Below, piece by piece: positions 17,747-50,526 of a stretch of 64,000 nucleotides of DNA. This DNA comes from Escherichia coli. GTDB lineage: Bacteria > Pseudomonadota > Gammaproteobacteria > Enterobacterales > Enterobacteriaceae. The position numbers and the translations under genes were made by a program. The notes beneath the pieces are model-generated. The model worked only from the letters and a program-made list of their open reading frames with translations. It did not search any database and was not told where the DNA came from. Location: assembly GCF_050920415.1 (NCBI RefSeq), contig NZ_CP169309.1, one strand, 5' to 3'. How positions within the stretch are numbered: the first letter of the stretch is position 1; each line of letters starts with the position of its first letter.

Positions 17747-20700
17747 TCAGAACGACCAGTTCACACCAGCCACCGCGTTCCACGGGGATTCCACACTGGC
17801 ACCATGGCTATACCCCACCCCGAGATGCCCGCTTAACGAACTGCTGAATGAGGCTTTAATACCTGCCTGGTATATTCCACGTCTGCCCGACAAATCATTG
17901 ACAAAATTACCGTCATTATTCACTTTCACCCGGTTATCATCGACAAATTCTTTGCGCACAGCCGCCTTCAGCCACGGCTCTACTTCCATGCCGTTCCCCA
18001 GACGCATGTTGTAACTCAGCGTTGCGCCCAGTTCACGATATATACTGCGGGTATCGACTGATTTCGATTCCATACCATTGGATAAATGATATTCGGGGTT
18101 GTCAGCGGTTAACCCCGTTAACGATGCATACGGCGTCAGGTTCCAGTTACCATCGGTAAATCGCATCCCGGTTTCAATGTGACCGCCCAGCCCGTTGCTG
18201 CGATAACTGCCGTTGGCGGCTCCACCGCTGCTCATTTTACCGGCTACGTTACTTTCAAAGCGGTTCAGCTTCACGATACCGTCCAGATAGAAACCACTTT
18301 CATGTTCCCAGCTGACATAGCCCCCCAGAGAATAACTGCCCACACTGCCATGTCCTCCACGATCAAAACCGATATGTGAATGGGAATAACCCATAAAAGC
18401 GCCCAGCGTCGCAATCCCCTCAGGAATATCATTACGGCTATCGATCCCCACCGTCATTCCGGTCAGCGTCTGCTCAAACCCGGCACCCGCATCGGTGGTG
18501 ACATTATTACGGGTGTTATACGTCGTCCCCCAGACATTATTGTTGTGTGGACTCGCTTTCATTATGTTCAACCGCTCGCGAATACTGTTTAGCTCAGCAT
18601 CAAAGACCAACGGTAATGTTGCTGCCATATTGAGTACGGCTGCCGTAGAAGGCGTGATGCGTTTCTCCGGGACGGGTGTCGGCGTTGGATCGGGAGTCGG
18701 GTCTGGTTTCGGATCCGGTTTTGGGTCTGGTTTTGGATCCGGTTTCGGATTTGGGTTGGGGTCCGGGTTGGGTTTGACATCATTGGTCAGGTTCCAGTTG
18801 CTGTTGCCGTCGCTTTTCAGGACATACTCATAGGTCCCAAGATCAACGAAACCGCCGGTATTACCCAGCGTAAACGAAGCATCCCCTCCCCCTGTTTTCA
18901 CCAGCGTCATCGCGTCGTCAGACTGAGGGCTGACGCCGGTATCCTGAACAAAGATTTTAAAATTGCCAGTGGCGTTGTTGTTGACGACCAGTTGATCGCC
19001 CCGGGAGCCTGCAACGTTGGTATGCAGGTAGAAATTACCGCTGCCGGAAAGTTCACTGGTGGTCAGCGTATTGTAGATACCGTTAGTTGTGGCAGGCGCT
19101 GCTGTTTGTGCTGATAAATAAACATCACCGTCGTTGAGGAGCAAACTGTTTACTCTATATTCGCAGTTGCTGGTGCCTGCACAGGAATTATTGCTGTTAA
19201 GCCAGACACTGCCCCGGCTGGCAGCCGTCAGGTCGGCAAGCGTCGTATCGACGCCATTTCCGATAGTTAATGTCGCGCTATCGGTAATCCGGACCACCCC
19301 TTCAAGTTTAACTGGCGTAACATTATCCCGTGGCGTCATTAACGACAGGCTTCCTGTCGCGCCACTGACCGATGCATCCGCCAGCGTACCTGCGTAGACG
19401 ATTGCCGTCCCGCCAGCGACCTGTAGATCTTCTGCCCGGGCCAGAGCCTGAAACTCATCTTTTGACCGACCAAGGGTATATTGCCCACCGGAATTAACCT
19501 TTGTGGCGAAGTCCTGACCCAGGTTTTGCATTGCCCCACCGTTGCCAACCGTGGAATCGCGAGCTTCGGTACCTGCTAATACCAATAAATTACCGCCATT
19601 TTCCAGCAGCACATTGGTCGCTAAATTTCCGGCAATGGAAAAGGTGCCGTACTGGTGAGTACCGCTGATTTCAATACCGTTAGCCGTGCTCGTCTGGAGA
19701 GCGGCACCGCTGTTCTGGATGATATCTGTCGCTTTGCCATTATCGTTGACTGTCAGCGTACCGCCTTCATTAATCGTTGTTTTTACTGCCTCACCGTTAG
19801 CCGAAACTGTTTGTATTCCGCCGTCGTTAATCGTTGTCTCAGTCGCCACACCCTCGACGATTTGTTCACCGCCGGTAAGCATCGTGCCAGTCGCAGTGGC
19901 TTTTGTTTTGACGATCTCCCGTCCGCCCGCATTGACCTGTGTTTTGGCGGAAGTGGTGTCTGACTCCACGGTTAACACGCCGCCATTTGCCAGCAGGATA
20001 TTGTTCGCCGCATCCTGCTCGATGCTGAACGCGACGCCATCAGCGCGTGTCCCTGTGACCCGCGTCGCCCTGGTGGTTGCCACCAACGCGCCCTGGCTAC
20101 TCTGCTGTATCCCCGTAGCGCTGCCTTTCTCCCGCACATCGAGTGTGCCGCCGTCATTAAGTACCGAGTTTTCAGCCAGACCGCCCTCATTAACTACCTG
20201 TGAACCGCCATTAATAATGGAACCTTCCGTTGTCCCGTTTGCCATAATTTGTTGTAGGCCAGAGACGATATCGGTATTGATCGCCTTACCATAATTCTGA
20301 ACGGTTTGCGTGCCGCCTTTGATGTGCGTTTTATCTGTTGACCCACCATCAACAATTTGTTCACCACTTTCGATATTTGCCTCAGTGGCTAAACCATATA
20401 CCGTTTGCTTGCCACCTTTGATATTTGCTTTATCAGAAGTGGCACTGGCATATATTGTTTGGGTGCCCGCACTATTGAGTACAGTGCCAACATCTTTTCC
20501 ATAAACATCCATTTTGCCGTTGGCATTAATAATCGTATCAACTGCCCGGGAACCAGTAACGACTGTTAATGAGCCAGCGTTTTCCAGCACTACATTTTTA
20601 GCTTCTGAATTCCTGATGTAGAAAGCATCACCATAACTGTTGGTTCCTTCGATAAGTGTTCCGGAAGTCGTGGAAGCAATTAATGCGCCGCCGGATTGTT

Positions 20701-22438
20701 GCTCAACATGCTTAGCCTCACCACCGTCCTGAACCTCCAGAACGCCACCATTATTAAGTCTGGTGGTATCTGTTTTAGCCTCCTTCTGGACAATCAGCTT
20801 ACCGCCAGCATCAACGGTAGTATTTTTCGCCGTGGTTTTAGCCACTACCGTCAGTTCGCCGGTATTTTCCAGCACAACATAATTAGCCTCCCCTCCGGTA
20901 ATAGTGAAGTGAGAGAGCTTGTTGTATCCTTCAATATCAGTCCCTGCGCCCGTGTTGGCAACTAAAGCACTGCCCGTCTCCTGGTTAACCCCATGTGCGA
21001 TACCACCGGTATAGACAATCAGCGAGCCTCCGGCGCTAATATTGCTGCCAGTTGCCGTACCATCTTTCTCAACAACCTGCCGGCTCCCGGAGGAGATATT
21101 TGTCGTGTCAGCTTTCCCGCCGCTCTTGATATTTTGTGTTCCGCTGTTGATATTGGTTCCCGTGGCAATACCATGATTATTAATATTCTGTGTGCCACCA
21201 TTAATTATGGTATTTGTCGCGTTTCCGGCAACATCCATAACCCCGCCATTATCTATTCGGGTCGCATCAGCTTTAGCATTCGTTAAAACTGACATTGTTC
21301 CTTTATCTTTAATAACCGTCTTGTTTGCCGAACCATATGCGTTTATGTCTAAATGGCCACCGTTTTCCAGCAACACATTGTCTGCCACGTGATTGTGGAT
21401 GGAGAATGCCCCTTCACTATTCGTACCGCTCACCGTCGACCTGTCAGTCATTGCTTTTAAAGCCGCGCCATCGTGCTGGGTAACATTCGTTGCCGTACCC
21501 TCTCTAACATCAAGCACGCCACCGGAATATATTTCAATAACATTCGAGGTGCTCCTGCTATCAACAATTTGCGTCCCACCAGAATAGATCGTGGTAGTGT
21601 GCGCCGTTGACGTGTTTTGCAGCGTCTGCATTCCTCCATTTTTAATGGTGGTTATTTGTGCAGTGCTTGAATCAACATCCTGTCGACCACCATCTATTGT
21701 GGTGTCCAGCGCATGGCTCTTAATTGTTCTTTGGTCACCTCCATTTTTAATGATAGTGTTTTCTACAATACTCGAATCTACATACTGTCGGCCCCCATCT
21801 ATTGTTGTGTTCGTTGCCAGACTTCCTTGTGTGATGTTCTGAGAACCAGATGTATTTATCGTCGTACCGTCAACATGCCCCTGAGCTGTTACTGTTTGTT
21901 TACCACCATCAATGACAGTCCCGTTTGCTCTCCCTCCTTCGACGTATGAATTACCATTCTTAATTATCGTGCCATTGCTGGTACCATCCTTATAAATGTA
22001 CTGATTGCCACTCTCGATTAACGTGCCATTGCTGGTACCACCGTTATAAACTTGCTGATTGCCACTCGCGATTATCGTACCGCTAGAATTCCCACCATTA
22101 TAAATTACCTGTGTACCCCCATGAAGGATTGTATTATTAGCTTGCCCCTGATAATTGTTATGGTTTGCTACATCTTGTTGTCCACCCATTTCAATAATAC
22201 TTCCATTAGACACCCCACCAAATACAGTCTGGTGGCCGTGATTAATGATATGAGTATCATTAGTTGTCCCCCGTTCATCTACTATTTGCTCGCCATCCAC
22301 AGTTTCACCATTTACGATACCAGTAACGATTGATGTGAAAGCAGCCTCTCCAGGCTGGGCATATATCAAGGCAGATATCAATAAGGAAAGTACTGAACGG
22401 CGAAAATAATAGCGACTGGTCCTGTTCATAAATTTCAT
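17747..22438 (-). CDS. AIDA-I-type autotransporter adhesin: beta-helix repeat passenger, Pro-rich linker, C-terminal beta-barrel
   Basis: ORF 17747..22558; likely start at MKFMNRTSRYYFRRSVLSLLISALIYA (22438 or 22429) with GAGG RBS. Dozens of GGxQxV/NGT repeats, PNPDPNPNPKPDPKPDPKPDP linker, C-terminus ending ...NWSF typical of autotransporter barrels. Confidence 0.85.
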   Translation of the reverse strand: MKFMNRTSRYYFRRSVLSLLISALIYAQPGEAAFTSIVTGIVNGETVDGEQIVDERGTTNDTHIINHGHQTVFGGVSNGSIIEMGGQQDVANHNNYQGQANNTILHGGTQVIYNGGNSSGTIIASGNQQVYNGGTSNGTLIESGNQYIYKDGTSNGTIIKNGNSYVEGGRANGTVIDGGKQTVTAQGHVDGTTINTSGSQNITQGSLATNTTIDGGRQYVDSSIVENTIIKNGGDQRTIKSHALDTTIDGGRQDVDSSTAQITTIKNGGMQTLQNTSTAHTTTIYSGGTQIVDSRSTSNVIEIYSGGVLDVREGTATNVTQHDGAALKAMTDRSTVSGTNSEGAFSIHNHVADNVLLENGGHLDINAYGSANKTVIKDKGTMSVLTNAKADATRIDNGGVMDVAGNATNTIINGGTQNINNHGIATGTNINSGTQNIKSGGKADTTNISSGSRQVVEKDGTATGSNISAGGSLIVYTGGIAHGVNQETGSALVANTGAGTDIEGYNKLSHFTITGGEANYVVLENTGELTVVAKTTAKNTTVDAGGKLIVQKEAKTDTTRLNNGGVLEVQDGGEAKHVEQQSGGALIASTTSGTLIEGTNSYGDAFYIRNSEAKNVVLENAGSLTVVTGSRAVDTIINANGKMDVYGKDVGTVLNSAGTQTIYASATSDKANIKGGKQTVYGLATEANIESGEQIVDGGSTDKTHIKGGTQTVQNYGKAINTDIVSGLQQIMANGTTEGSIINGGSQVVNEGGLAENSVLNDGGTLDVREKGSATGIQQSSQGALVATTRATRVTGTRADGVAFSIEQDAANNILLANGGVLTVESDTTSAKTQVNAGGREIVKTKATATGTMLTGGEQIVEGVATETTINDGGIQTVSANGEAVKTTINEGGTLTVNDNGKATDIIQNSGAALQTSTANGIEISGTHQYGTFSIAGNLATNVLLENGGNLLVLAGTEARDSTVGNGGAMQNLGQDFATKVNSGGQYTLGRSKDEFQALARAEDLQVAGGTAIVYAGTLADASVSGATGSLSLMTPRDNVTPVKLEGVVRITDSATLTIGNGVDTTLADLTAASRGSVWLNSNNSCAGTSNCEYRVNSLLLNDGDVYLSAQTAAPATTNGIYNTLTTSELSGSGNFYLHTNVAGSRGDQLVVNNNATGNFKIFVQDTGVSPQSDDAMTLVKTGGGDASFTLGNTGGFVDLGTYEYVLKSDGNSNWNLTNDVKPNPDPNPNPKPDPKPDPKPDPKPDPTPDPTPTPVPEKRITPSTAAVLNMAATLPLVFDAELNSIRERLNIMKASPHNNNVWGTTYNTRNNVTTDAGAGFEQTLTGMTVGIDSRNDIPEGIATLGAFMGYSHSHIGFDRGGHGSVGSYSLGGYVSWEHESGFYLDGIVKLNRFESNVAGKMSSGGAANGSYRSNGLGGHIETGMRFTDGNWNLTPYASLTGLTADNPEYHLSNGMESKSVDTRSIYRELGATLSYNMRLGNGMEVEPWLKAAVRKEFVDDNRVKVNNDGNFVNDLSGRRGIYQAGIKASFSSSLSGHLGVGYSHGASVESPWNAVAGVNWSF
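18668..18779 (-). repeat. Tandem short coding repeat for the (PDPK/PNPD)n linker of the autotransporter
   Basis: Periodic GGATCCGGTTT/GGGTCTGGTTT units on the plus strand. Confidence 0.8.
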
Positions 22439-23032
22439 CCTCTGAAAAGTGAATACTGAGTAGCGGGTAAGCGACCTTAGCTCTGCTGCAACATCGGCCC
22501 ACAGGCACCAGACCAGGGGATTCATCCTTAAGAGACAGCGCAAGTGTATTGTGTTCACCGCTCATCAAAGACATCATGATGAAATGATGATATTCCGCAT
22601 AAGAAAGAGGCATTTTTAGACGCATCGCGCTGAAGTGTGGTTGAATAAAAATCAATCTTTTCAGATAAGACTGTCGTACTCTTATTTTGCGGAAATAAGG
22701 CCGTCGGCAAAGTAAAATGACTCACATAATTGTTTCTGATGAATATCTTCTACTCACATGAATATTACACAATAATATTGATGCATCAGATTATCTTACC
22801 TTTACAACATCACGTTAACAGCCAATGACACTTCTTGAATAAAAATATTGTCAATCAAAGAGTTATTTTTTATTTAAGATTATTCTCATTCAAGTAAAAG
22901 ACATAATTCCTATCATCACAGCCACGCTCATTTTGAATTATCTGAATAATAGCGAGCGTTCTTTAGTTAAGCAGGTCTTAATTGAAGACGAAATTATTGT
23001 GTGTGCAACTTACTTAATACCGGACATCTAAG

Positions 23033-30594: not shown

Positions 30595-30662
30595 TACAAC
30601 GGGCGTGTTATATGCCCGTTCAATACTTAATAGGTATAGCGTTAACATATTCTTGATAGCAT
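30595..30662. repeat. Diverged duplicate of the icd 3' end plus terminator hairpin (icdC-like remnant); left boundary of the islet
   Basis: CAACGGGCGTGTTATATGCCCGTT (26/27 identical to the hairpin at 36911..36934) followed by TTAACATATTCTTGATAGCAT, which matches the last codons of icd. Confidence 0.65.
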
Positions 30663-31229
30663 GTATTGCATACCTCCAGCCTTAGAGTTATCTCCGGCTA
30701 ACTCCACCAAACATGGCTGCACACAGCCAGATAAGAACGCTTGCGCGCATCTGGATATCATACCGCTGCTGGAACTGTTTCTTAATCATCCTACCTTATT
30801 AGACCTATTCGATACTGGCCATTATGAAGGACGCAAAGTAAGCGCTTTTTATGCGTTTTTGCTGAGTTATCATCACGTTACCTTAATATTATCAGGAACG
30901 AGTTAACGCTGCTCATAACGGTCAAACCGATACTATAAAGCCCAATAATTGAAACCTTTTCATCATGTCAGGAAGATAGTCATCCTTATGATCTTTATAT
31001 AAAAAAGCCAACCATGGGGTTGGCAAAGTGGCACAAACCAGCATAAAAGCTATGCTTTGTTTACAAATCTTCTTTGAATTAAATATATATCGTCCTGACT
31101 AAACAGAACTAAAACGGAATGAATTATTTAATCATGTTACTAAATTTCATTTTGTTTAGCCTCTGTTGAGATCCCTTGTTTTAAATTTCATTTAGATAAA
31201 ATTCTTAATTAAATCCTTGGGAGTCAATT

Positions 31230-31490
31230 ATGTCTATGCAAAGTCAAGGAATGAACTTTGAAATGAACCTATACGCATATTTGAATAAATATGATAGTCG
31301 GCTTTCAGAAGAAAAACTTGCAATTGATAAGGCAGTTAGAGATTTATATCTTTGCAACGAACACGTGGATAACAAGAGCATTATACTGAAATTGCTCTCA
31401 TTTTTATCATCTGCTGATGACATTGTTGAAAAAGATATTATCAGGAATGCTTTGGAAGTGGTGCTTCTTTTTACATTAGACGATATTTAA
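31230..31490 (+). CDS. AriR/YmgB-family small protein (paralog)
   Basis: C-terminal half HVDNKSIILKLLSFLSSADDIVEKDIIRNALEVVLLFTLDDI aligns with AriR at 26467..26733 ([42 protein letters not shown]). Confidence 0.7.
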   Translation: MSMQSQGMNFEMNLYAYLNKYDSRLSEEKLAIDKAVRDLYLCNEHVDNKSIILKLLSFLSSADDIVEKDIIRNALEVVLLFTLDDI

Positions 31491-31737
31491 GTCATCTCAG
31501 GAGTTTTAATACACGAAGAGTGCCCGGATACTAGCGATTATATTCATATTTAATTATTAGTGCGGGGAAAGAGATTATGCATTGGCATATTTCTCTAACG
31601 TCCGTGATAGAAAAAAACTTTAAATATAAATAAAGAACAAACCACCTTTGCATTCAACCTCATCTGAGCTGACTATAGTACAAATTATATTGATATTCTT
31701 TATCAACATCATTGGAACAGAAGAATAAGGCGAAGAA

Positions 31738-32061
31738 ATGAAGTGTATAGTAATTGATACTGTAATACAACCTTCGTGTGGTATATATTTTTCAGTCATA
31801 TGGAGCGATATGAAAATGATCATTTGGTATCGTTCAAATATATTTCTCCCACCTGGCAGCATATTTACAGTTATTAAGTCAGGTATTATACTCGAGGATA
31901 AAGAATATCCGATCAGTATTTTTAACGTGGCGCTATTCAACAAAAATTTATGGAATTTAATCAAAAATAGTCAAGAGTGTCCTACAGAATCAAACAAAAT
32001 TACGAATAAATGCATGCATAAGCATTGCATTATGCAAATATGTCCACATGGTCTCAAGTAA
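31738..32061 (+). CDS. iraM: Anti-adaptor protein IraM-like (RssB inhibitor family)
   Basis: 107 aa; MKCIVIDTVIQPSCGIYFSVIWSDMKMIIWYRSNIFLPPGSIF... resembles IraM/YcgW by recall. Confidence 0.75.
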   Translation: MKCIVIDTVIQPSCGIYFSVIWSDMKMIIWYRSNIFLPPGSIFTVIKSGIILEDKEYPISIFNVALFNKNLWNLIKNSQECPTESNKITNKCMHKHCIMQICPHGLK

Positions 32062-32793
32062 TGGGGGTTATTTAACCTTCCCTATATGCTATAGATAAAT
32101 CTACCAAAAACTGCCCCTTCGTAGAGGGGCGCTATGATTTTGTTTTATTTGAAGGCATGGTGCTGAATGTATTCGTTGAATCCAGATTCAACACCTGAAG
32201 CTGCACTTAACCCATAATACTTGTTTCTGGTTCCTCTACCGAGTGGTCAAACAATGATATGTATGTGACGTCAGAGTTTATTTTTTTAGTGTTTAATGCT
32301 ATTAATTTAACGTAGTTACCTATCTTTTTTCTACCTTCTGAACTAACCTTAGGTTTCAACGTAACCGGCAGGAGGGGCTATCCCCAATCTTAAATTTTGC
32401 TGCCCGATTTGCTCAAGCCAAAGTTTTAATTTTACAACCTATAAACCTGAGTTAAATCAACCTCATGGTGCTGTCTGTTCCCGCTGTGGAACAAGACTCA
32501 CTGCAACATCTTGCATTCCTAAACTTCGCAGAAGGCGATGGGCAAAAACTGTACTGTAATGTTATTTCGATGTCTCTTATGGTAAATAGGAGGCATCGAG
32601 GCTAAGTGAGCAGCCTGCTTGCTTCTCAATCCTGGATACTATCAGCATTCACGCAGATGAAATGATGATATTTCGCGTAAGAAAGAGGCATTTTTTTATC
32701 AACTTCACATCGGAGATGGTAATAATCCTATGGGTCCAGTCCATATGAGGGGGCAACATACTATAAAATTCACAATCATAAATTAACTATATA

Positions 32794-34269
32794 TCAAGAA
32801 CGCCAAAAAAATCCTGAAAATAGTATAATAACAGGGTAAATTTCAAGTCGACCAAGAATCATAGCAATACACATGAGATATTTTGCAATATCATTAAGAA
32901 CACCGAATGAGGATGCGGTAGCCCCAAAACCCAGCCCCATATTATTAATGCATGCAGCGACTGTCGCAAATGATGTAAGGAAATCATATCCCATACCATT
33001 TAGCACCAGTATAAAAAACACTGTAAAGAAAGTATAAAGAAAAAAGAAACTCCATACAGACCTCATTACGCGGTCTGTAACAATCTTCCCTCCTACATTT
33101 ACACTAAGCAATGCTCTGGGATGAGAAAGCTGATTTATTTCGTGTTTACTTTGTTTAAAAAGTATAAGAAATCTAAGTGATTTAATTCCGCCGCACGTTG
33201 AGCCTATACATCCCCCAAAAAAACTTGACAGCAGCAAAAAAACTATCGTATGTGTGGGCCAGTTTGAATAATCCTGCGTAGCTAAACCATTATCAGTGAG
33301 CATGGAGCTAGCAAGAAAAAACGAATGAACAACACTTCCAGTTAAGTCATACATACCTATATGCCAGACCTGGAAAGAGGTAACAATGATAACACCTGAA
33401 GCTATTAACAAAAAGAAACGAAGTTCAACATCTCTGAGTAAGGGTTTTATTGTTTTCCTGCTTATAACAACATACCAAAGAGTGAAGTTGAAAGCCGATA
33501 ACAGAGAAAAAGAGCCCGCCACCAGTTCAATCAAATAATTATTGAAATAGCCGATACTCTCACTATGAGTTGAAAAACCGCCAAGAGAAACTGTAGAAAG
33601 TCCATGACAAATAGCATCAAACAAAGGCATTCCTGCAAGTCGATAACAAACAATACAAGCAATGCCTAATAAAGAATAAGTTATCCAAAGTGTCCGCGAC
33701 GTATCAGCCAAGCGTGGAGTCAGTTTGTCATCCTTAAATGGCCCTGGCATTTCTGACTGATAAAGTTTTGCACCACCAATACCCAATAATGGCAACACAG
33801 CAACTGCCAGAACAATAACCCCTAAACCGCCTATAAAATTTAATTGTGACCGGTAGAACAAATATGCCCGAGATAATGAACTGACATCATCAATTACTGT
33901 TGCTCCTGTTGTTGTTATTCCGGAAACCCCTTCAAACAGCGCGTCAGCAAACGTTAAATTAAGCTCTGAATCAATCCATAATGGAAATGCGCTAATAATA
34001 GAAAATAAAATCCAAAACATTACAATTATAATAAACCCATCACGGGTGCGTAATTGAATGCCAGATTTTTTAGTGGTATACCACGCTCCGCCACCAATAC
34101 AAAAAAATATAACAAAAGTAATAAAAAAAACGAACAAGCTTTTTTCTTTATAAAACAATGCTACAACCATTGGTGGTAACATTGAAAGACTATAGAGCCA
34201 GACCAAGAACCCACACATATGAGTTACAACTCTTACATGAGATGTATTCATATCCAAATGTTCTTTCAA
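32794..34269 (-). CDS. TrkH/TrkG-family potassium uptake membrane protein
   Basis: 491 aa, polytopic, with repeated selectivity-filter-like GxGxxxGG segments (GGLGVIVLAV..., STCGGIKS...). Confidence 0.75.
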   Translation of the reverse strand: MKEHLDMNTSHVRVVTHMCGFLVWLYSLSMLPPMVVALFYKEKSLFVFFITFVIFFCIGGGAWYTTKKSGIQLRTRDGFIIIVMFWILFSIISAFPLWIDSELNLTFADALFEGVSGITTTGATVIDDVSSLSRAYLFYRSQLNFIGGLGVIVLAVAVLPLLGIGGAKLYQSEMPGPFKDDKLTPRLADTSRTLWITYSLLGIACIVCYRLAGMPLFDAICHGLSTVSLGGFSTHSESIGYFNNYLIELVAGSFSLLSAFNFTLWYVVISRKTIKPLLRDVELRFFLLIASGVIIVTSFQVWHIGMYDLTGSVVHSFFLASSMLTDNGLATQDYSNWPTHTIVFLLLSSFFGGCIGSTCGGIKSLRFLILFKQSKHEINQLSHPRALLSVNVGGKIVTDRVMRSVWSFFFLYTFFTVFFILVLNGMGYDFLTSFATVAACINNMGLGFGATASSFGVLNDIAKYLMCIAMILGRLEIYPVIILFSGFFWRS

Positions 34270-35204
34270 TTATAACCACCTTACTGCAATGTCATGATTA
34301 TACTGTATAAATTTTAACTCTTCTTAGATCTTACTTCACTGGTCCTTATGAAACAATCAGCAAAATGAATCTTATTATAACACTGTTCGGTTATGTATTG
34401 TTGAGCCTTCCCGCTGGGCCTGCATCATTACAAGTCGCTCCCTATGGGGCTTTGTCGAATAAATAATTTTTCGGTAAGTATCCCCCTGAGCAGGTTGTAT
34501 CTTCAGGCAGTATGAACACTTTCTGGCATACCTACCTTCGTCATTATGTTCAGCGTATGCACCATGACCAAAGCCTCTGCAACCGGCCTATCATAATCTA
34601 GCAGCATCAGAGAACCTCAGAATAACTGTTTTACCCTGTTCATTGCCGTTTCCGCTATTGAGCGACGATTGTAATCTTTTGTCCATTTTCACCGGGAATT
34701 ACCCTCGGTCAATCGCTGATACGCGACTGCACAGTTACGGTCGGCATACTCACCGGGCCAGTAACCCGCTCCTTTTTGGGGTGGGATGAGCGCGCTGATT
34801 TTCACACGGCGCAGCTGCTCGTAACAGAGCCGAGAGGCGTAAACTCCGTCTGCTGCTGTCCTGATTTTTTGATGGGTTTGCCGGATTAATCCGGCTACAC
34901 CTCTACATCCGTTACGCTGAATGCTGAGGTCGCCCTTGGGAAGAAGGCATTGCTGACTTATACCAATCCGAAATCACCTCCTCGAGCAACCAGACAGGGA
35001 GGGGCCTCGGTTGATAAGAGCTCTGTTATTGATGTGCCAGTTGGTGATTCTAACTTTTGCTTTGTAACGGGACGAGCCGTGTTGGCAGATGATGTGTGGT
35101 CTGATCCTTAAACTCAGTAAAAGTACGATTTATTCAAAAAAGCCCCTCCACTATGATTTCGATTTAAGGGGCTGATGATTATGTAACGCGAATTTACCGG
35201 ATCC

Positions 35205-36590
<1,386 letters not shown>

Positions 36591-36908
36591 TCAGGGGGGT
36601 TGATATTCCGGATCGTGCCGTGTTTGCCCACGGCTCCCCCTGGAGAGCTGCAGACCTGTTTATTTAACTCGCACAGCGCCGGGGCCTGTCAGCAAACAGG
36701 GAGCATAACCGTCGTGCCATTAAACGCCAGACGGGAGATCATTATTATTTTATTAATACAGATCCGTTGCATTCCGGTCTTTACCGCAGTTTAAAAGAAA
36801 AGAGAATAGGGACTTAGGCAGTAGAGCAGTCATTGGACAGACCACACTACCCCAAACTAGCAGGGGAGTTTTGATAAAATTTTGATAACCGTTAGCAGGC
36901 TAACAAAA

Positions 36909-36976
36909 CACAACGGGCGTGTTATACGCCCGTTACAGTTTTTAACACATGCAGAAATTACATATTCTTGATGATC
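36909..36976. repeat. icd terminator hairpin plus icd 3' end; right-hand copy of the islet-flanking direct repeat
   Basis: CAACGGGCGTGTTATACGCCCGTT hairpin just downstream of the icd stop; matches 30595..30662. Confidence 0.65.
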
Positions 36977-38208
36977 GCATCACCAAACTCTGAACATTTC
37001 AGCAGCTTAGCGCCTTCCATCAGGCGTTCGAAATCATAGGTTACGGTCTTCGCATTGATTGCGCCTTCCATACCTTTAACAATCAGATCTGCGGCTTCAG
37101 TCCAGCCCATATGGCGCAGCATCATCTCAGCGGAGAGGATGATAGAGCCTGGGTTAACTTTGTCCTGACCAGCGTACTTCGGCGCAGTACCGTGGGTGGC
37201 TTCAAACAGCGCGCATTCGTCACCGATGTTTGCGCCTGGGGCGATACCGATACCGCCAACCTGCGCTGCCAGAGCATCAGAAATGTAGTCACCGTTGAGG
37301 TTCATACAGGCGATAACGTCGTATTCAGCCGGACGCAGCAGGATCTGTTGCAGGAATGCGTCAGCAATCACGTCTTTAATGACGATCTCTTTGCCGGTGT
37401 TCGGGTTTTTGACTTTCAGCCACGGGCCGCCGTCGATCAGTTCACCGCCAAACTCTTCACGCGCCAGCTGGTAACCCCAGTCTTTAAACGCGCCTTCGGT
37501 GAACTTCATGATGTTACCTTTGTGCACCAGGGTCACAGAGTCACGGTCGTTAGCAATTGCGTATTCGATCGCGGCACGAACCAGACGTTTGGTGCCTTCT
37601 TCCGAACACGGCTTGATACCGATACCGCAATGTTCCGGGAAGCGAATTTTCTTCACGCCCATCTCTTCACGCAGGAATTTAATCACTTTCTCAGCGTCGG
37701 CAGAATCAGCTTTCCATTCGATACCCGCATAAATGTCTTCCGAGTTTTCACGGAAGATAACCATATCGGTCAGTTCAGGATGTTTAACCGGGCTTGGGGT
37801 GCCCTGATAGTAACGTACCGGACGCAGGCAGATGTAGAGATCCAGTTCCTGGCGCAGAGCTACGTTGAGAGAACGAATACCGCCGCCAACCGGAGTGGTC
37901 AGAGGGCCTTTAATGGCAACGCGATATTCACGAATCAGATCAAGGGTTTCAGCAGGCAGCCAGACGTCCTGACCATAAACCTGTGTGGATTTTTCACCGG
38001 TGTAAATTTCCATCCAGGAGATTTTACGCTCGCCTTTATAGGCTTTCTCGACTGCAGCGTCGACCACTTTCAGCATGGCTGGGGTTACATCTACACCGAT
38101 TCCATCACCTTCAATGTAAGGGATAATCGGATTTTCAGGAACGTTGAGTTTGCCGTTTTGCAGGGTGATCTTCTTGCCTTGTGCCGGAACAACTACTTTA
38201 CTTTCCAT
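36958..38208 (-). CDS. icd: Isocitrate dehydrogenase (NADP)
   Basis: 416 aa, [38 protein letters not shown]...; intact, not prophage-interrupted. Confidence 0.95.
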
Positions 38209-49894: not shown

Positions 49895-49926
49895 CTCTCC
49901 CCGACAATTCCAATTGTCGGGGAGAG
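49895..49926. other. Near-perfect 15-bp-arm palindrome between potB and the phage tfa-like gene
   Basis: CTCTCCCCGACAATT-CC-AATTGTCGGGGAGAG; no flanking T-run. Confidence 0.5.
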
Positions 49927-49953
49927 CTTCGAACGCTAGTCGCAGCTAATCTA

Positions 49954-50526
49954 TTAGCAAATGCCAAACGCTCGAATTGAAGCCAAGTCATCCAGATTAT
50001 TCAGTTGTTCCTTCATCTCCCGCTGGCGTTCGTGGATTTTAAATCCCTCCGCCACCATGGCCACCATCATGGCATCGTTCAGCGCAATAAGTTTCTCCCT
50101 GGTCAGTACGACGTTGTTATTATCCGCATCAGTCCAGAAAAAACCCTCCGGAAGCAGTCCGGCCTGTGCTGCTGCAACCACGGGGGCAAGGCGTGACTGC
50201 GAGGTTTTTCCGCCATCAAAACGACGGCCATCAAACGTGAAAATAAACTCAACGTTTTCCTGACTGTCGCGCCATGCCTCAATTTCCCGCCTTTTGGCAT
50301 CCTTTGCCGCTGCAATAAGTTCCGGCGTGACGGTGAACGGGGCGATTTCGCCCCATTTCCCGCTTTGCAGCTCCTGCCAGATGTGCTGGCCTGTCGGGGC
50401 CATATCATCCTGTATGGCAGTATACAGGGCGAACTCCGTTTCACCTTCAAATAACACCTCGCAGTCAACCGCACCATTTTCAAGATAATGTGCGTTTCTG
50501 ATACCTTTCACCGCTCTGATTTTCAT
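49954..50526 (-). CDS. Putative tail fiber assembly/chaperone-like protein (positional call)
   Basis: ORF 49954..50541 directly downstream of and overlapping the tail fiber gene; not recognisably lambda Tfa. Confidence 0.45.
   Translation of the reverse strand: MKIRAVKGIRNAHYLENGAVDCEVLFEGETEFALYTAIQDDMAPTGQHIWQELQSGKWGEIAPFTVTPELIAAAKDAKRREIEAWRDSQENVEFIFTFDGRRFDGGKTSQSRLAPVVAAAQAGLLPEGFFWTDADNNNVVLTREKLIALNDAMMVAMVAEGFKIHERQREMKEQLNNLDDLASIRAFGIC

What the first reader, a model, noticed from the sequence alone, without database searches (positions are those of the whole stretch)
32794..34269. TrkH/TrkG-family K+ uptake gene as islet cargo
A 491-aa polytopic protein with TrkH-type repeated pore segments lies inside the AT-rich islet, far from the core trkH locus. 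In K-12 the paralog trkG is prophage cargo (Rac); this copy sits at a different accessory site, suggesting repeated horizontal capture of Trk transporters.
Basis: partly seen in the sequence, partly recalled or inferred. Interest (0 to 1): 0.5.

Follow-up and report, generated by a model that had tools for sequence, protein, structure and literature searches.

The report
Stranded prophage trkG potassium transporter gene
This is the already-known E. coli potassium-uptake gene trkG, normally carried by the Rac prophage, left here without a phage as an intact, still-selected gene beside icd, so it is the same phage cargo at a new address rather than a new transporter capture.

Summary
The ORF is real: 32794-34269 on the minus strand, 491 aa from a TTG, or 485 aa from the ATG at 34251 that PGAP uses. 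It is trkG. It is 96.5% identical in protein and about 90.8% in DNA to K-12 Rac TrkG, but only 40% identical to core TrkH. All pore-loop glycines, the D3 gating loop, R468 and the Na+-activation residue D327 are conserved. It lies in a 4.8-kb AT-rich insertion in the icd-iraM spacer, which is not the Rac site, and this allele occurs in only 18 of 5,426 complete E. coli genomes. The idea of repeated capture is not supported. The gene still has the last ~65 nt of the phage lysis gene Rz and the same leader directly upstream, as in Rac and in all 48 viral contigs that include upstream DNA. The two alleles are also each other's closest relatives. Rz is cut off by a decayed IS903-like element with no target duplication, and no other phage genes remain. 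Purifying selection is strong between the alleles (dN/dS 0.04) and within the islet lineage (16 synonymous to 4 non-synonymous changes, P=1e-7). This is a known gene: a stranded, domesticated phage moron. Interest is low.

The parts
32794..34251 (-). trkG coding sequence, 485 aa. An alternative TTG start at 34269 gives 491 aa.
   Evidence: 96.5% aa and 90.8% nt identity to K-12 Rac trkG. PGAP annotates it as TrkG, WP_001360580.1. It passes TIGR00933, and phrog_1916 scores 1016 bits. Pore glycines G116, G224/225, G322 and G439, the GGCIGSTCGGIK loop, R468 and D327 are all conserved.
34252..34377 (-). trkG leader / intergenic region shared with Rac. It contains the AAGGTGG SD-like motif before the TTG at 34269.
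   Evidence: 117 of 128 aligned bases are identical to K-12 Rac. An 18-bp deletion removes the Rz stop region.
34378..34447 (-). Truncated 3' end of a phage Rz (spanin/endopeptidase) gene; dead and frameshifted.
   Evidence: tblastn with BL21 Rac Rz finds RERLVMMQAQ...AQQYITEQC, Rz residues ~130-152. DNA homology to Rac runs up to 34442 in every locus compared.
34448..35144 (.). IS903-like (IS5-family) relic. Both terminal inverted repeats are present, ~360 bp is deleted internally, and there is no 9-bp target duplication.
   Evidence: ~79% identity to IS903B in two pieces that span a full 1,057-bp element. The IRs GGCTTTGTCGAATAAATAA and CGATTTATTCAAAAAAGCC and the flanks TCCCTATGG and CCTCCACTA were read directly. 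PGAP calls it a transposase pseudogene.
35205..36572 (-). Orphan 455-aa protein of unknown function with internal repeats. It is part of the islet and is not phage-like.
   Evidence: No Pfam or NCBIfam match. It belongs to an E. coli-only family. A 513-aa paralog is a single-gene insertion between fadH and ygjK. Internal direct repeats were found.
36582..36804 (-). Upstream (promoter) region that belongs to the 455-aa orphan gene cassette.
   Evidence: ~80% identical to DNA at ~660-675 kb in genomes that carry the 513-aa paralog near 680 kb. I infer this is the region upstream of the paralog; the hit itself was not inspected.
36869..36915 (.). Short stretch like the attL side of e14, just beyond the icd terminator, at the icd edge of the islet.
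   Evidence: 96-98% identical to K-12 1196416-1196462, which lies 43-89 bp past the icd stop inside e14.
32745..32793 (-). 3' flank of trkG shared with Rac; the end of the cassette.
   Evidence: Homology to every Rac-type locus ends at 32745. 35 of 48 bases are identical.
32099..32744 (.). Orphan non-coding DNA between the trkG cassette and iraM.
   Evidence: No match in the phage collection, K-12 or Rac-like loci at the protein level. Only a 40-bp repeat is shared with the ymgJ region.
31738..32061 (+). iraM, the left chromosomal border of the islet.
   Evidence: NF007393 scores 144.5 bits against a cutoff of 121. 80% nt identity to K-12 iraM, with homology ending at 32098.
36958..38208 (-). 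icd, the right chromosomal border. Its last 165 bp is the e14/phage 21 attachment target.
   Evidence: In L063 an e14-like prophage displaces exactly window 36958-37122 together with the islet.

Best explanation
The gene is trkG, the phage-borne paralog of the TrkH K+ channel/transporter subunit. By homology it forms the four-repeat (M1-P-M2)x4 pore. In K-12, TrkG works with the core cytoplasmic gating ring TrkA and the ATP-binding protein SapD/TrkE. It mediates Na+-dependent K+ uptake and is partly silenced by H-NS (PMC9898762). Here it survives as a stranded moron. A lambdoid, Rac-like phage lineage acquired trkG once, immediately downstream of its lysis gene Rz. A copy of that Rz'-leader-trkG cassette ended up in the icd-iraM spacer, a hot spot for mobile DNA next to the e14/phage 21 attachment site. 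An IS903-like element cut off Rz, and every other phage gene is gone. The transporter gene stayed intact under purifying selection in the lineage that carries it. Shown here: the gene's identity, intact motifs, the Rz junction, the IS truncation, the islet borders, its rarity, and selection. Inferred: transport activity and its partners, and the route of arrival, which could be in-place prophage decay or IS-mediated relocation.
For: Identity: 96.5% aa to K-12 TrkG and 40% to TrkH. It passes TIGR00933 and fails the TrkH equivalog. It aligns end to end with solved TrkH, with all filter glycines, the D3M2b loop and R468 conserved. D327 is present (PMC9898762). Phage origin: the Rz 3' remnant and leader lie upstream exactly as in K-12 and BL21 Rac. 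Rz is upstream of trkG in all 48 IMG/VR loci with upstream DNA, in all 10 phage records and in the Rac-type plasmid copies. Single origin: the window and Rac alleles are sisters in a neighbour-joining tree, and the next relative is a chromosomal E. fergusonii gene at 79%. Stranding: the IS903-like relic abuts Rz and has no target duplication. The insertion is a clean 4,808 bp in the icd-iraM spacer. No other phage genes were found. Selection: dN/dS is 0.043 against Rac. Within 10 unbiased islet genomes there are 16 synonymous and 4 non-synonymous sites, pN/pS 0.075, binomial P=1.2e-7. All copies are intact, and trkG has fewer variable sites per kb (13.7) than the flanking relics (21-31). The same gene order is seen in all 10 contexts of the exact protein.
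Against: No transport assay exists for this allele. Two substitutions (A329S, S330N) lie next to D327; S330 is one of the residues reported to contact D327 (PMC9898762), although N330 is also the state in the nearest outgroups. No promoter stood out above chance. No intact phage carrying this allele was found in the phage collection, IMG/VR or complete E. coli genomes, so the donor is unknown. The islet lies outside the e14 att core, and its other gene (455 aa) is not phage-like. In-place decay of an icd-integrated prophage is therefore not demonstrated.
Confidence: 0.85

Rival explanations
1. Independent capture: a Trk transporter gene was acquired at the icd-iraM site in an event separate from the one that placed trkG in Rac.
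For: The chromosomal site differs. Synonymous divergence from the Rac allele is large, dS 0.44. No phage genes other than the Rz fragment remain. Chromosomal, non-phage trkG-clade genes exist in relatives such as E. fergusonii.
Against: The Rz 3' end and about 125 bp of leader are shared with Rac-type phages, which an independent capture from a bacterial chromosome would not bring along. The two alleles are sisters at 96.5% aa, against at most 79% for every other relative.
Confidence: 0.04
2. In-place decay: a lambdoid phage carrying trkG integrated at icd through an e14/phage 21-type site, then lost everything except Rz'-trkG through IS-mediated and other deletions.
For: An e14 attL-like stretch of ~47 bp lies at the icd edge. 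Rz'-trkG has the orientation expected for a lambdoid prophage whose integrase end faces icd. The IS903-like relic has no target duplication, which is typical of an adjacent deletion. No second copy of the icd 3' end is present.
Against: The icd 3' end and terminator are of the chromosomal (icdC) type. The islet starts about 50 bp after the icd stop, outside the att core. When e14 integrates, it displaces the islet along with icdC (L063). The 455-aa gene and its upstream region form an orphan cassette that is also found as a single-gene insertion elsewhere.
Confidence: 0.4
3. IS-mediated relocation: an IS903-like element inserted in Rz of a Rac-like prophage elsewhere. It then carried the adjacent Rz'-trkG segment into the icd-iraM spacer by transposition, cointegrate resolution or recombination.
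For: The IS end abuts the truncated Rz exactly, and the flanks do not match. The islet is a patchwork of unrelated pieces: the orphan gene cassette, the IS relic, the trkG cassette and orphan DNA. The insertion lies outside the phage att core.
Against: Only one IS copy is present, with no second copy or IS end beyond trkG. The 646 bp downstream of the cassette matches no phage or IS.
Confidence: 0.4
4. The gene is a decaying, non-functional relic, retained only because too little time has passed.
For: Everything around it is dead: Rz', the IS relic and orphan DNA. In K-12, trkG is partly silenced by H-NS and contributes less than TrkH (PMC9898762).
Against: All 14 copies examined are intact. 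Polymorphism within the lineage is 16 synonymous to 4 non-synonymous (P=1.2e-7), and site diversity is lower than in the flanking relics. The lineage has accumulated about 4.8% synonymous polymorphism since the shared IS/Rz scars formed, which is ample time for decay.
Confidence: 0.06

Closest known systems
TrkG of the E. coli K-12 cryptic prophage Rac (b1363; Na+-dependent K+ transporter)
   Same: Both are 485 aa with no gaps and are 96.5% identical. The pore glycines, gating loop, R468 and D327 are the same. The upstream Rz 3' end and leader, the 49-bp 3' flank and the low GC content (37%) are also shared.
   Different: The chromosomal site is the icd-iraM spacer rather than Rac at ttcA. No surrounding prophage remains. 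Rz is truncated by an IS903-like relic. DNA divergence is about 9%, with dS 0.44. There are 17 aa substitutions, including A329S and S330N next to D327. This allele is in 18 of 5,426 complete genomes, against about 1,530 for the Rac type.
TrkH (core E. coli b3849; solved Vibrio parahaemolyticus TrkH 3PJZ, TrkH-TrkA 4J9U)
   Same: Same family and architecture, with a full-length alignment and conserved filter glycines, D3M2b loop and C-terminal Arg.
   Different: Only 40% identical. It fails the TrkH equivalog model, scoring 448 against a cutoff of 866. TrkH is a GC-normal core gene (53% GC) and is Na+-independent (PMC9898762).
Chromosomal TrkG-clade genes of other Enterobacterales (E. fergusonii, Citrobacter, Pectobacterium, Enterobacter, Serratia and others)
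   Same: Same TrkG subclade at 61-79% identity. Many are 486-491 aa, with an N-terminal extension that matches the TTG-start form.
   Different: They sit in non-phage contexts, for example porin-trkG-hchA-mtfA in E. fergusonii, with no Rz upstream.
Lambdoid phage morons downstream of the lysis cassette (for example lambda bor; recalled from general knowledge, not tested here)
   Same: A host-benefit gene inserted between Rz and the packaging genes, with its own leader. In Rac the order is essD-rrrQ-Rz-trkG-ynaK.
   Different: Here the phage around the moron has been lost, apart from about 65 nt of Rz.
KtrB (Ktr system membrane subunit)
   Same: Same superfamily fold, with a distant match at E=5.6e-9.
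   Different: Very distant in sequence; this gene is not a Ktr member.

Membership tests
TrkH/TrkG family K+ uptake protein (TIGR00933 / PF02386) | Whole-protein score above the curated family cutoff | tested here: met
   TIGR00933 scores 406.3 bits against a cutoff of 331.15. PF02386 is recorded for the protein and its cluster.
TrkH/TrkG family K+ uptake protein (TIGR00933 / PF02386) | Four M1-P-M2 repeats, each with the selectivity-filter glycine | tested here: met
   The alignment to solved TrkH (3PJZ/4J9U) covers residues 7-485. TTTG116AT, SLG224G225FS, TDNG322LA and NNMG439LG align with the TrkH filter motifs.
TrkH/TrkG family K+ uptake protein (TIGR00933 / PF02386) | Intramembrane gating loop in D3M2b and the conserved Arg in D4M2 | tested here: met
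   FFGGCIGSTCGGIKSLR aligns with FIGGCAGSTGGGMKVIR, and GR468LEI aligns with GRLEI.
TrkH/TrkG family K+ uptake protein (TIGR00933 / PF02386) | K+ uptake activity that depends on TrkA and, for TrkG, SapD/TrkE | not testable with these tools
   This needs complementation and uptake assays. trkA and sapD lie outside the window.
TrkG subclade (ortholog of K-12 Rac TrkG) | Closest relative is K-12 TrkG rather than TrkH or another clade | tested here: met
   96.5% identity to TrkG, 79% to the next relative and 40% to TrkH. It is sister to the Rac alleles in the NJ tree.
TrkG subclade (ortholog of K-12 Rac TrkG) | Asp five residues after the third pore glycine (D327), implicated in Na+ activation | tested here: met
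   G322 and D327 are present, but the neighbouring residues are changed, A329S and S330N (PMC9898762).
TrkH equivalog (NF008020, core TrkH ortholog) | Score above the equivalog cutoff | tested here: not met
   448 bits against a cutoff of 866.
Prophage moron (cargo inside a prophage) | Located between Rz and the packaging/structural genes of a recognisable prophage | tested here: not met
   Only about 65 nt of Rz remain upstream. There are no integrase, terminase, head or tail genes in 32099-36906. Its origin as a moron is inferred from the retained junction.
Prophage moron (cargo inside a prophage) | Shares the phage-side junction sequence with bona fide prophage copies | tested here: met
   The Rz 3' end and leader are shared with Rac, phage records and IMG/VR contigs.
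e14/phage 21-type insertion at the icd att site | Element bounded by a duplicated icd 3' end (attL/attR), with the crossover 165 bp from the icd stop | tested here: not met
   There is a single icd 3' end. The islet starts about 50 bp after the icd stop. An e14-like prophage displaces icdC together with the islet in L063. Only about 47 bp of e14 attL-like DNA is present.

The most novel reading that the evidence does not exclude
A phage-derived TrkG allele has been fully domesticated. After every other phage gene was lost, it became a stably inherited, selected chromosomal gene in one E. coli lineage, where it is the only trkG copy. The allele is anciently diverged (dS 0.44), and its changes next to D327 (A329S, S330N) could alter its Na+ activation or ion selectivity compared with K-12 TrkG.
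Probability: 0.12. Interest if true: 0.3.

Novelty: already known. Interest (0 to 1): 0.15.

Why it matters
The significance is modest. It corrects the reading from "repeated capture" to "one capture, then relocation and loss of the phage". It is also a clean small example of a phage moron outliving its phage: the transporter gene stays under purifying selection while the lysis gene and the IS next to it decay. It documents a second, deeply diverged trkG allele lineage at a fixed chromosomal address, which could serve as a natural variant for studying Na+-dependent gating in TrkG. It does not reveal a new kind of system.

Tried and rejected
1. I searched for this allele inside an intact phage. 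The phage collection (10 hits), plasmids, IMG/VR (49 loci) and 5,426 complete E. coli genomes hold only the Rac-type allele (~89-91% nt) outside the 18 islet genomes. The donor was not found.
2. I looked for phage remnants in the rest of the islet. Six-frame translations of 32098-32745, 34443-35204 and 35205-36957 gave no tblastn hit against about 50 Rac-like loci. The 3' orphan DNA has no match in the phage collection. tblastn with YnaK and YdaY found nothing credible.
3. An apparent extension of the Rz similarity to 34494 was rejected, because that DNA is the IS903-like inverted repeat.
4. I first read the islet as a prophage relic integrated at the e14 att site. I downgraded this after L063 showed that the islet lies outside the att core and that the e14-like stretch is only about 47 bp.
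5. The 455-aa neighbour has no Pfam or NCBIfam match and only weak PHROG hits. Its homologs are E. coli-only hypothetical proteins, so no function can be assigned.
6. The promoter scan gave no signal above shuffled controls, so no promoter is claimed.
7. Rfam gave only a partial STnc150 hit below the gathering score, at the icd terminator.
8. The identity profile against K-12 showed no clean gradient of divergence around the islet, so I make no claim of introgression.
9. The divergent IMG/VR alleles L043 and L046 (92-93% in tblastn) turned out to be frameshifted pseudogenes and were not used as evidence.

Full report
Observation. The ORF scan finds one uninterrupted frame at 32794..34269 on the minus strand, 491 aa from a TTG. 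The window is 100% identical to E. coli MFDS1022581 (NZ_CP169399.1). There PGAP annotates the same frame from the ATG at 34251 as "Trk system potassium transporter TrkG", 485 aa. The neighbourhood is AT-rich. trkG has 37.3% GC and 29% GC3, compared with 51% GC for icd and 48.9% for the window. The start codon cannot be settled here. AAGGTGG lies 6 nt before the TTG, and many TrkG-clade homologs are 491 aa with an aligned N-terminal extension. K-12 and PGAP use the ATG.

What the gene is. The protein is 468/485 (96.5%) identical, without gaps, to K-12 TrkG of the Rac prophage. It is 40% identical to K-12 TrkH. It passes the TrkH-family model TIGR00933 (406 bits against a cutoff of 331) and fails the TrkH equivalog (448 against 866). 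It hits a phage protein family, phrog_1916, at 1016 bits. Against solved structures it aligns over residues 7-485 with Vibrio TrkH (3PJZ, 4J9U) at E=1e-118, and only distantly with KtrB. The four pore-loop glycines (G116, G224/225, G322, G439) are conserved, as are the D3M2b loop (GGCIGSTCGGIK) and the C-terminal GR468LE arginine. D327 is also present. A 2022 study implicated this residue in Na+ activation of K-12 TrkG. The same study showed TrkG to be a Na+-dependent K+ transporter with Na+ uptake activity that is partly repressed by H-NS (PMC9898762). Two of the 17 substitutions (A329S, S330N) lie next to D327. N330 is also the state in the nearest outgroups.

Where it is. The gene lies between iraM (31738-32061, +) and icd (36958-38208, -). 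In K-12 this interval holds prophage e14, which integrates 165 bp from the icd stop (PMC6379469). K-12 trkG itself lies in Rac at ttcA, in the order Rz-trkG-ynaK. Comparison with K-12 shows that chromosomal homology ends at 32098 on the iraM side and resumes at 36907 on the icd side. The islet is therefore a clean 4,808-bp insertion in the ~100-bp icd-iraM spacer, and it replaces 13 bp of that spacer.

Anatomy of the islet. Homology to Rac covers only 32745-34442.
- Upstream of the ATG lies the same leader as in Rac, with 117 of 128 bases identical. Beyond it is the last ~65 nt of the phage lysis gene Rz (RERLVMMQAQ..AQQYITEQC), frameshifted and lacking its stop because of an 18-bp deletion.
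- Rz is cut off by an IS903-like element at 34448-35144, about 79% identical to IS903B. Both inverted repeats are present and ~360 bp is deleted internally. The 9-bp flanks do not match (TCCCTATGG and CCTCCACTA), which suggests an IS-mediated deletion or rearrangement rather than a simple insertion.
- Next comes a 455-aa orphan gene (35205-36572) with internal repeats and no family assignment. A paralog of it is a single-gene insertion between fadH and ygjK in other strains. Its upstream region (36582-36804) appears to travel with it.
- Only ~47 bp (36869-36915) resemble the attL side of e14.
- The 646 bp between the trkG cassette and iraM matches nothing.

Is this an independent capture? No. 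Rz lies directly upstream of trkG in K-12 and BL21 Rac. The same holds in all 10 phage records, in the Rac-type plasmid copies, and in all 48 IMG/VR loci that include upstream DNA, most with the same 141-bp gap. The window keeps that junction. In a search of 5.8 billion proteins, the window and Rac alleles fall in one 90% cluster. The next relatives are 79% (E. fergusonii) and 78% (Citrobacter) identical, followed by a broad Enterobacterales TrkG clade at 61-75%. A neighbour-joining tree places the window and Rac alleles as sisters. The E. fergusonii gene sits in a non-phage chromosomal context, porin-trkG-hchA-mtfA. This fits a single capture of an enterobacterial trkG by a lambdoid phage, before the two E. 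coli alleles diverged (dS 0.44).

How it got here. This part is inferred. There are two routes that I cannot separate. The first is in-place decay of a lambdoid prophage at icd. The e14-like scar, the orientation of Rz'-trkG and the IS relic without a target duplication support it. The second is IS-mediated relocation of an Rz'-trkG segment into a spacer that collects mobile DNA. Against the first route, the icd 3' end and its terminator are of the chromosomal (icdC) type. In one genome (L063) an e14-like prophage has integrated into icd and displaced exactly window 36958-37122 together with the islet, so the islet lies outside the att core. No intact phage carrying this allele was found.

Is it functional? 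Selection says yes. Between the alleles, dN/dS is 0.043. The exact protein is recorded in 1,067 index blocks, and all 10 contexts shown have the order icd-455aa-trkG-iraM, at 99.0-99.4% identity across the locus. In 10 complete genomes chosen without regard to protein sequence, every copy is intact. There are 16 synonymous and 4 non-synonymous polymorphic sites (pN/pS 0.075; binomial P=1.2e-7). Variable sites are rarer in trkG (13.7 per kb) than in the IS relic (21.5) or the orphan DNA (31). All these genomes share the IS and Rz scars, so this selection acted after the phage was lost. The window genome has a single trkG place. Transport activity, dependence on TrkA and SapD, and H-NS control are inferred from K-12 TrkG and were not tested.

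Distribution. trkG of any type is present in 1,550 of 5,426 complete E. coli genomes. This allele and islet are in 18 (0.33%), all chromosomal. The Rac-type allele also occurs on 15 plasmid records in that collection.

Verdict. The reading of the gene as accessory cargo is right, and the inference of repeated capture is not supported. The gene is already known and already annotated as TrkG. What is new is minor: a second, deeply diverged allele at a fixed address next to icd, surviving as a domesticated moron after its phage was lost. Interest is low (0.15).

Noticed in passing
window 35205-36572 (-), with upstream region 36582-36804: A 455-aa orphan protein with two internal ~465-495-bp repeats and a C-terminal ~189-bp repeat. 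It has no Pfam or NCBIfam match and belongs to an E. coli-only family. A 513-aa paralog (~60% identity) is a single-gene insertion between fadH and ygjK in roughly 236 complete genomes. The function and mobility mechanism of this one-gene cassette are unknown.
   Followed up: partly
window ~49900-64000 (-): A lambdoid prophage tail region lies directly after potB, where K-12 has potC, so a prophage is integrated at potB/potC. It comprises tape measure, tail proteins L/K/I, J, Lom and a tail fibre. An IS2 interrupts the J gene, and several genes are frameshifted. It has the same transcriptional orientation as the Rz'-trkG cassette, about 13 kb away.
   Followed up: no
window ~17747-22429 (-): An intact 4,683-bp gene for an AIDA-repeat autotransporter. 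At this position K-12 has only the ycgH pseudogene.
   Followed up: no
window 30630-32061: The region between ycgX and iraM differs from K-12. It holds an extra YmgB/AriR-family gene (31230-31490). iraM is only ~80% identical in DNA to K-12 iraM, although it still passes the IraM family model.
   Followed up: partly
window 36864-36942 (+): A partial Rfam hit to the Salmonella Hfq-binding sRNA STnc150 (36.8 bits, gathering score 60, model positions 186-263 of 267). It overlaps the icd terminator and the e14-like stretch.
   Followed up: no
window 32656-32695 and 22578-22617: A 40-bp repeat (95% identical) is shared between the orphan DNA downstream of trkG and the ymgJ region. The same short sequence occurs at the ymgJ locus of most E. 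coli genomes.
   Followed up: no
window 90-1499 (+): A 469-aa hypothetical protein lies next to dadX where K-12 has cvrA. Homology to K-12 begins only at window 1426.
   Followed up: no
loci L043 (9614-11071) and L046 (9169-10626), IMG/VR contigs: In some Rac-like prophages trkG is a frameshifted pseudogene, with the ORF ending after 60-74 codons. The moron is therefore not always maintained.
   Followed up: partly
locus L070 7001-8458 (E. fergusonii GCA_052538815.1): The closest non-E. coli relative of TrkG (79% aa, GC 42%) is a chromosomal gene between two porin genes and hchA/mtfA, with no phage genes nearby. It may represent the kind of locus from which phages captured trkG.
   Followed up: partly
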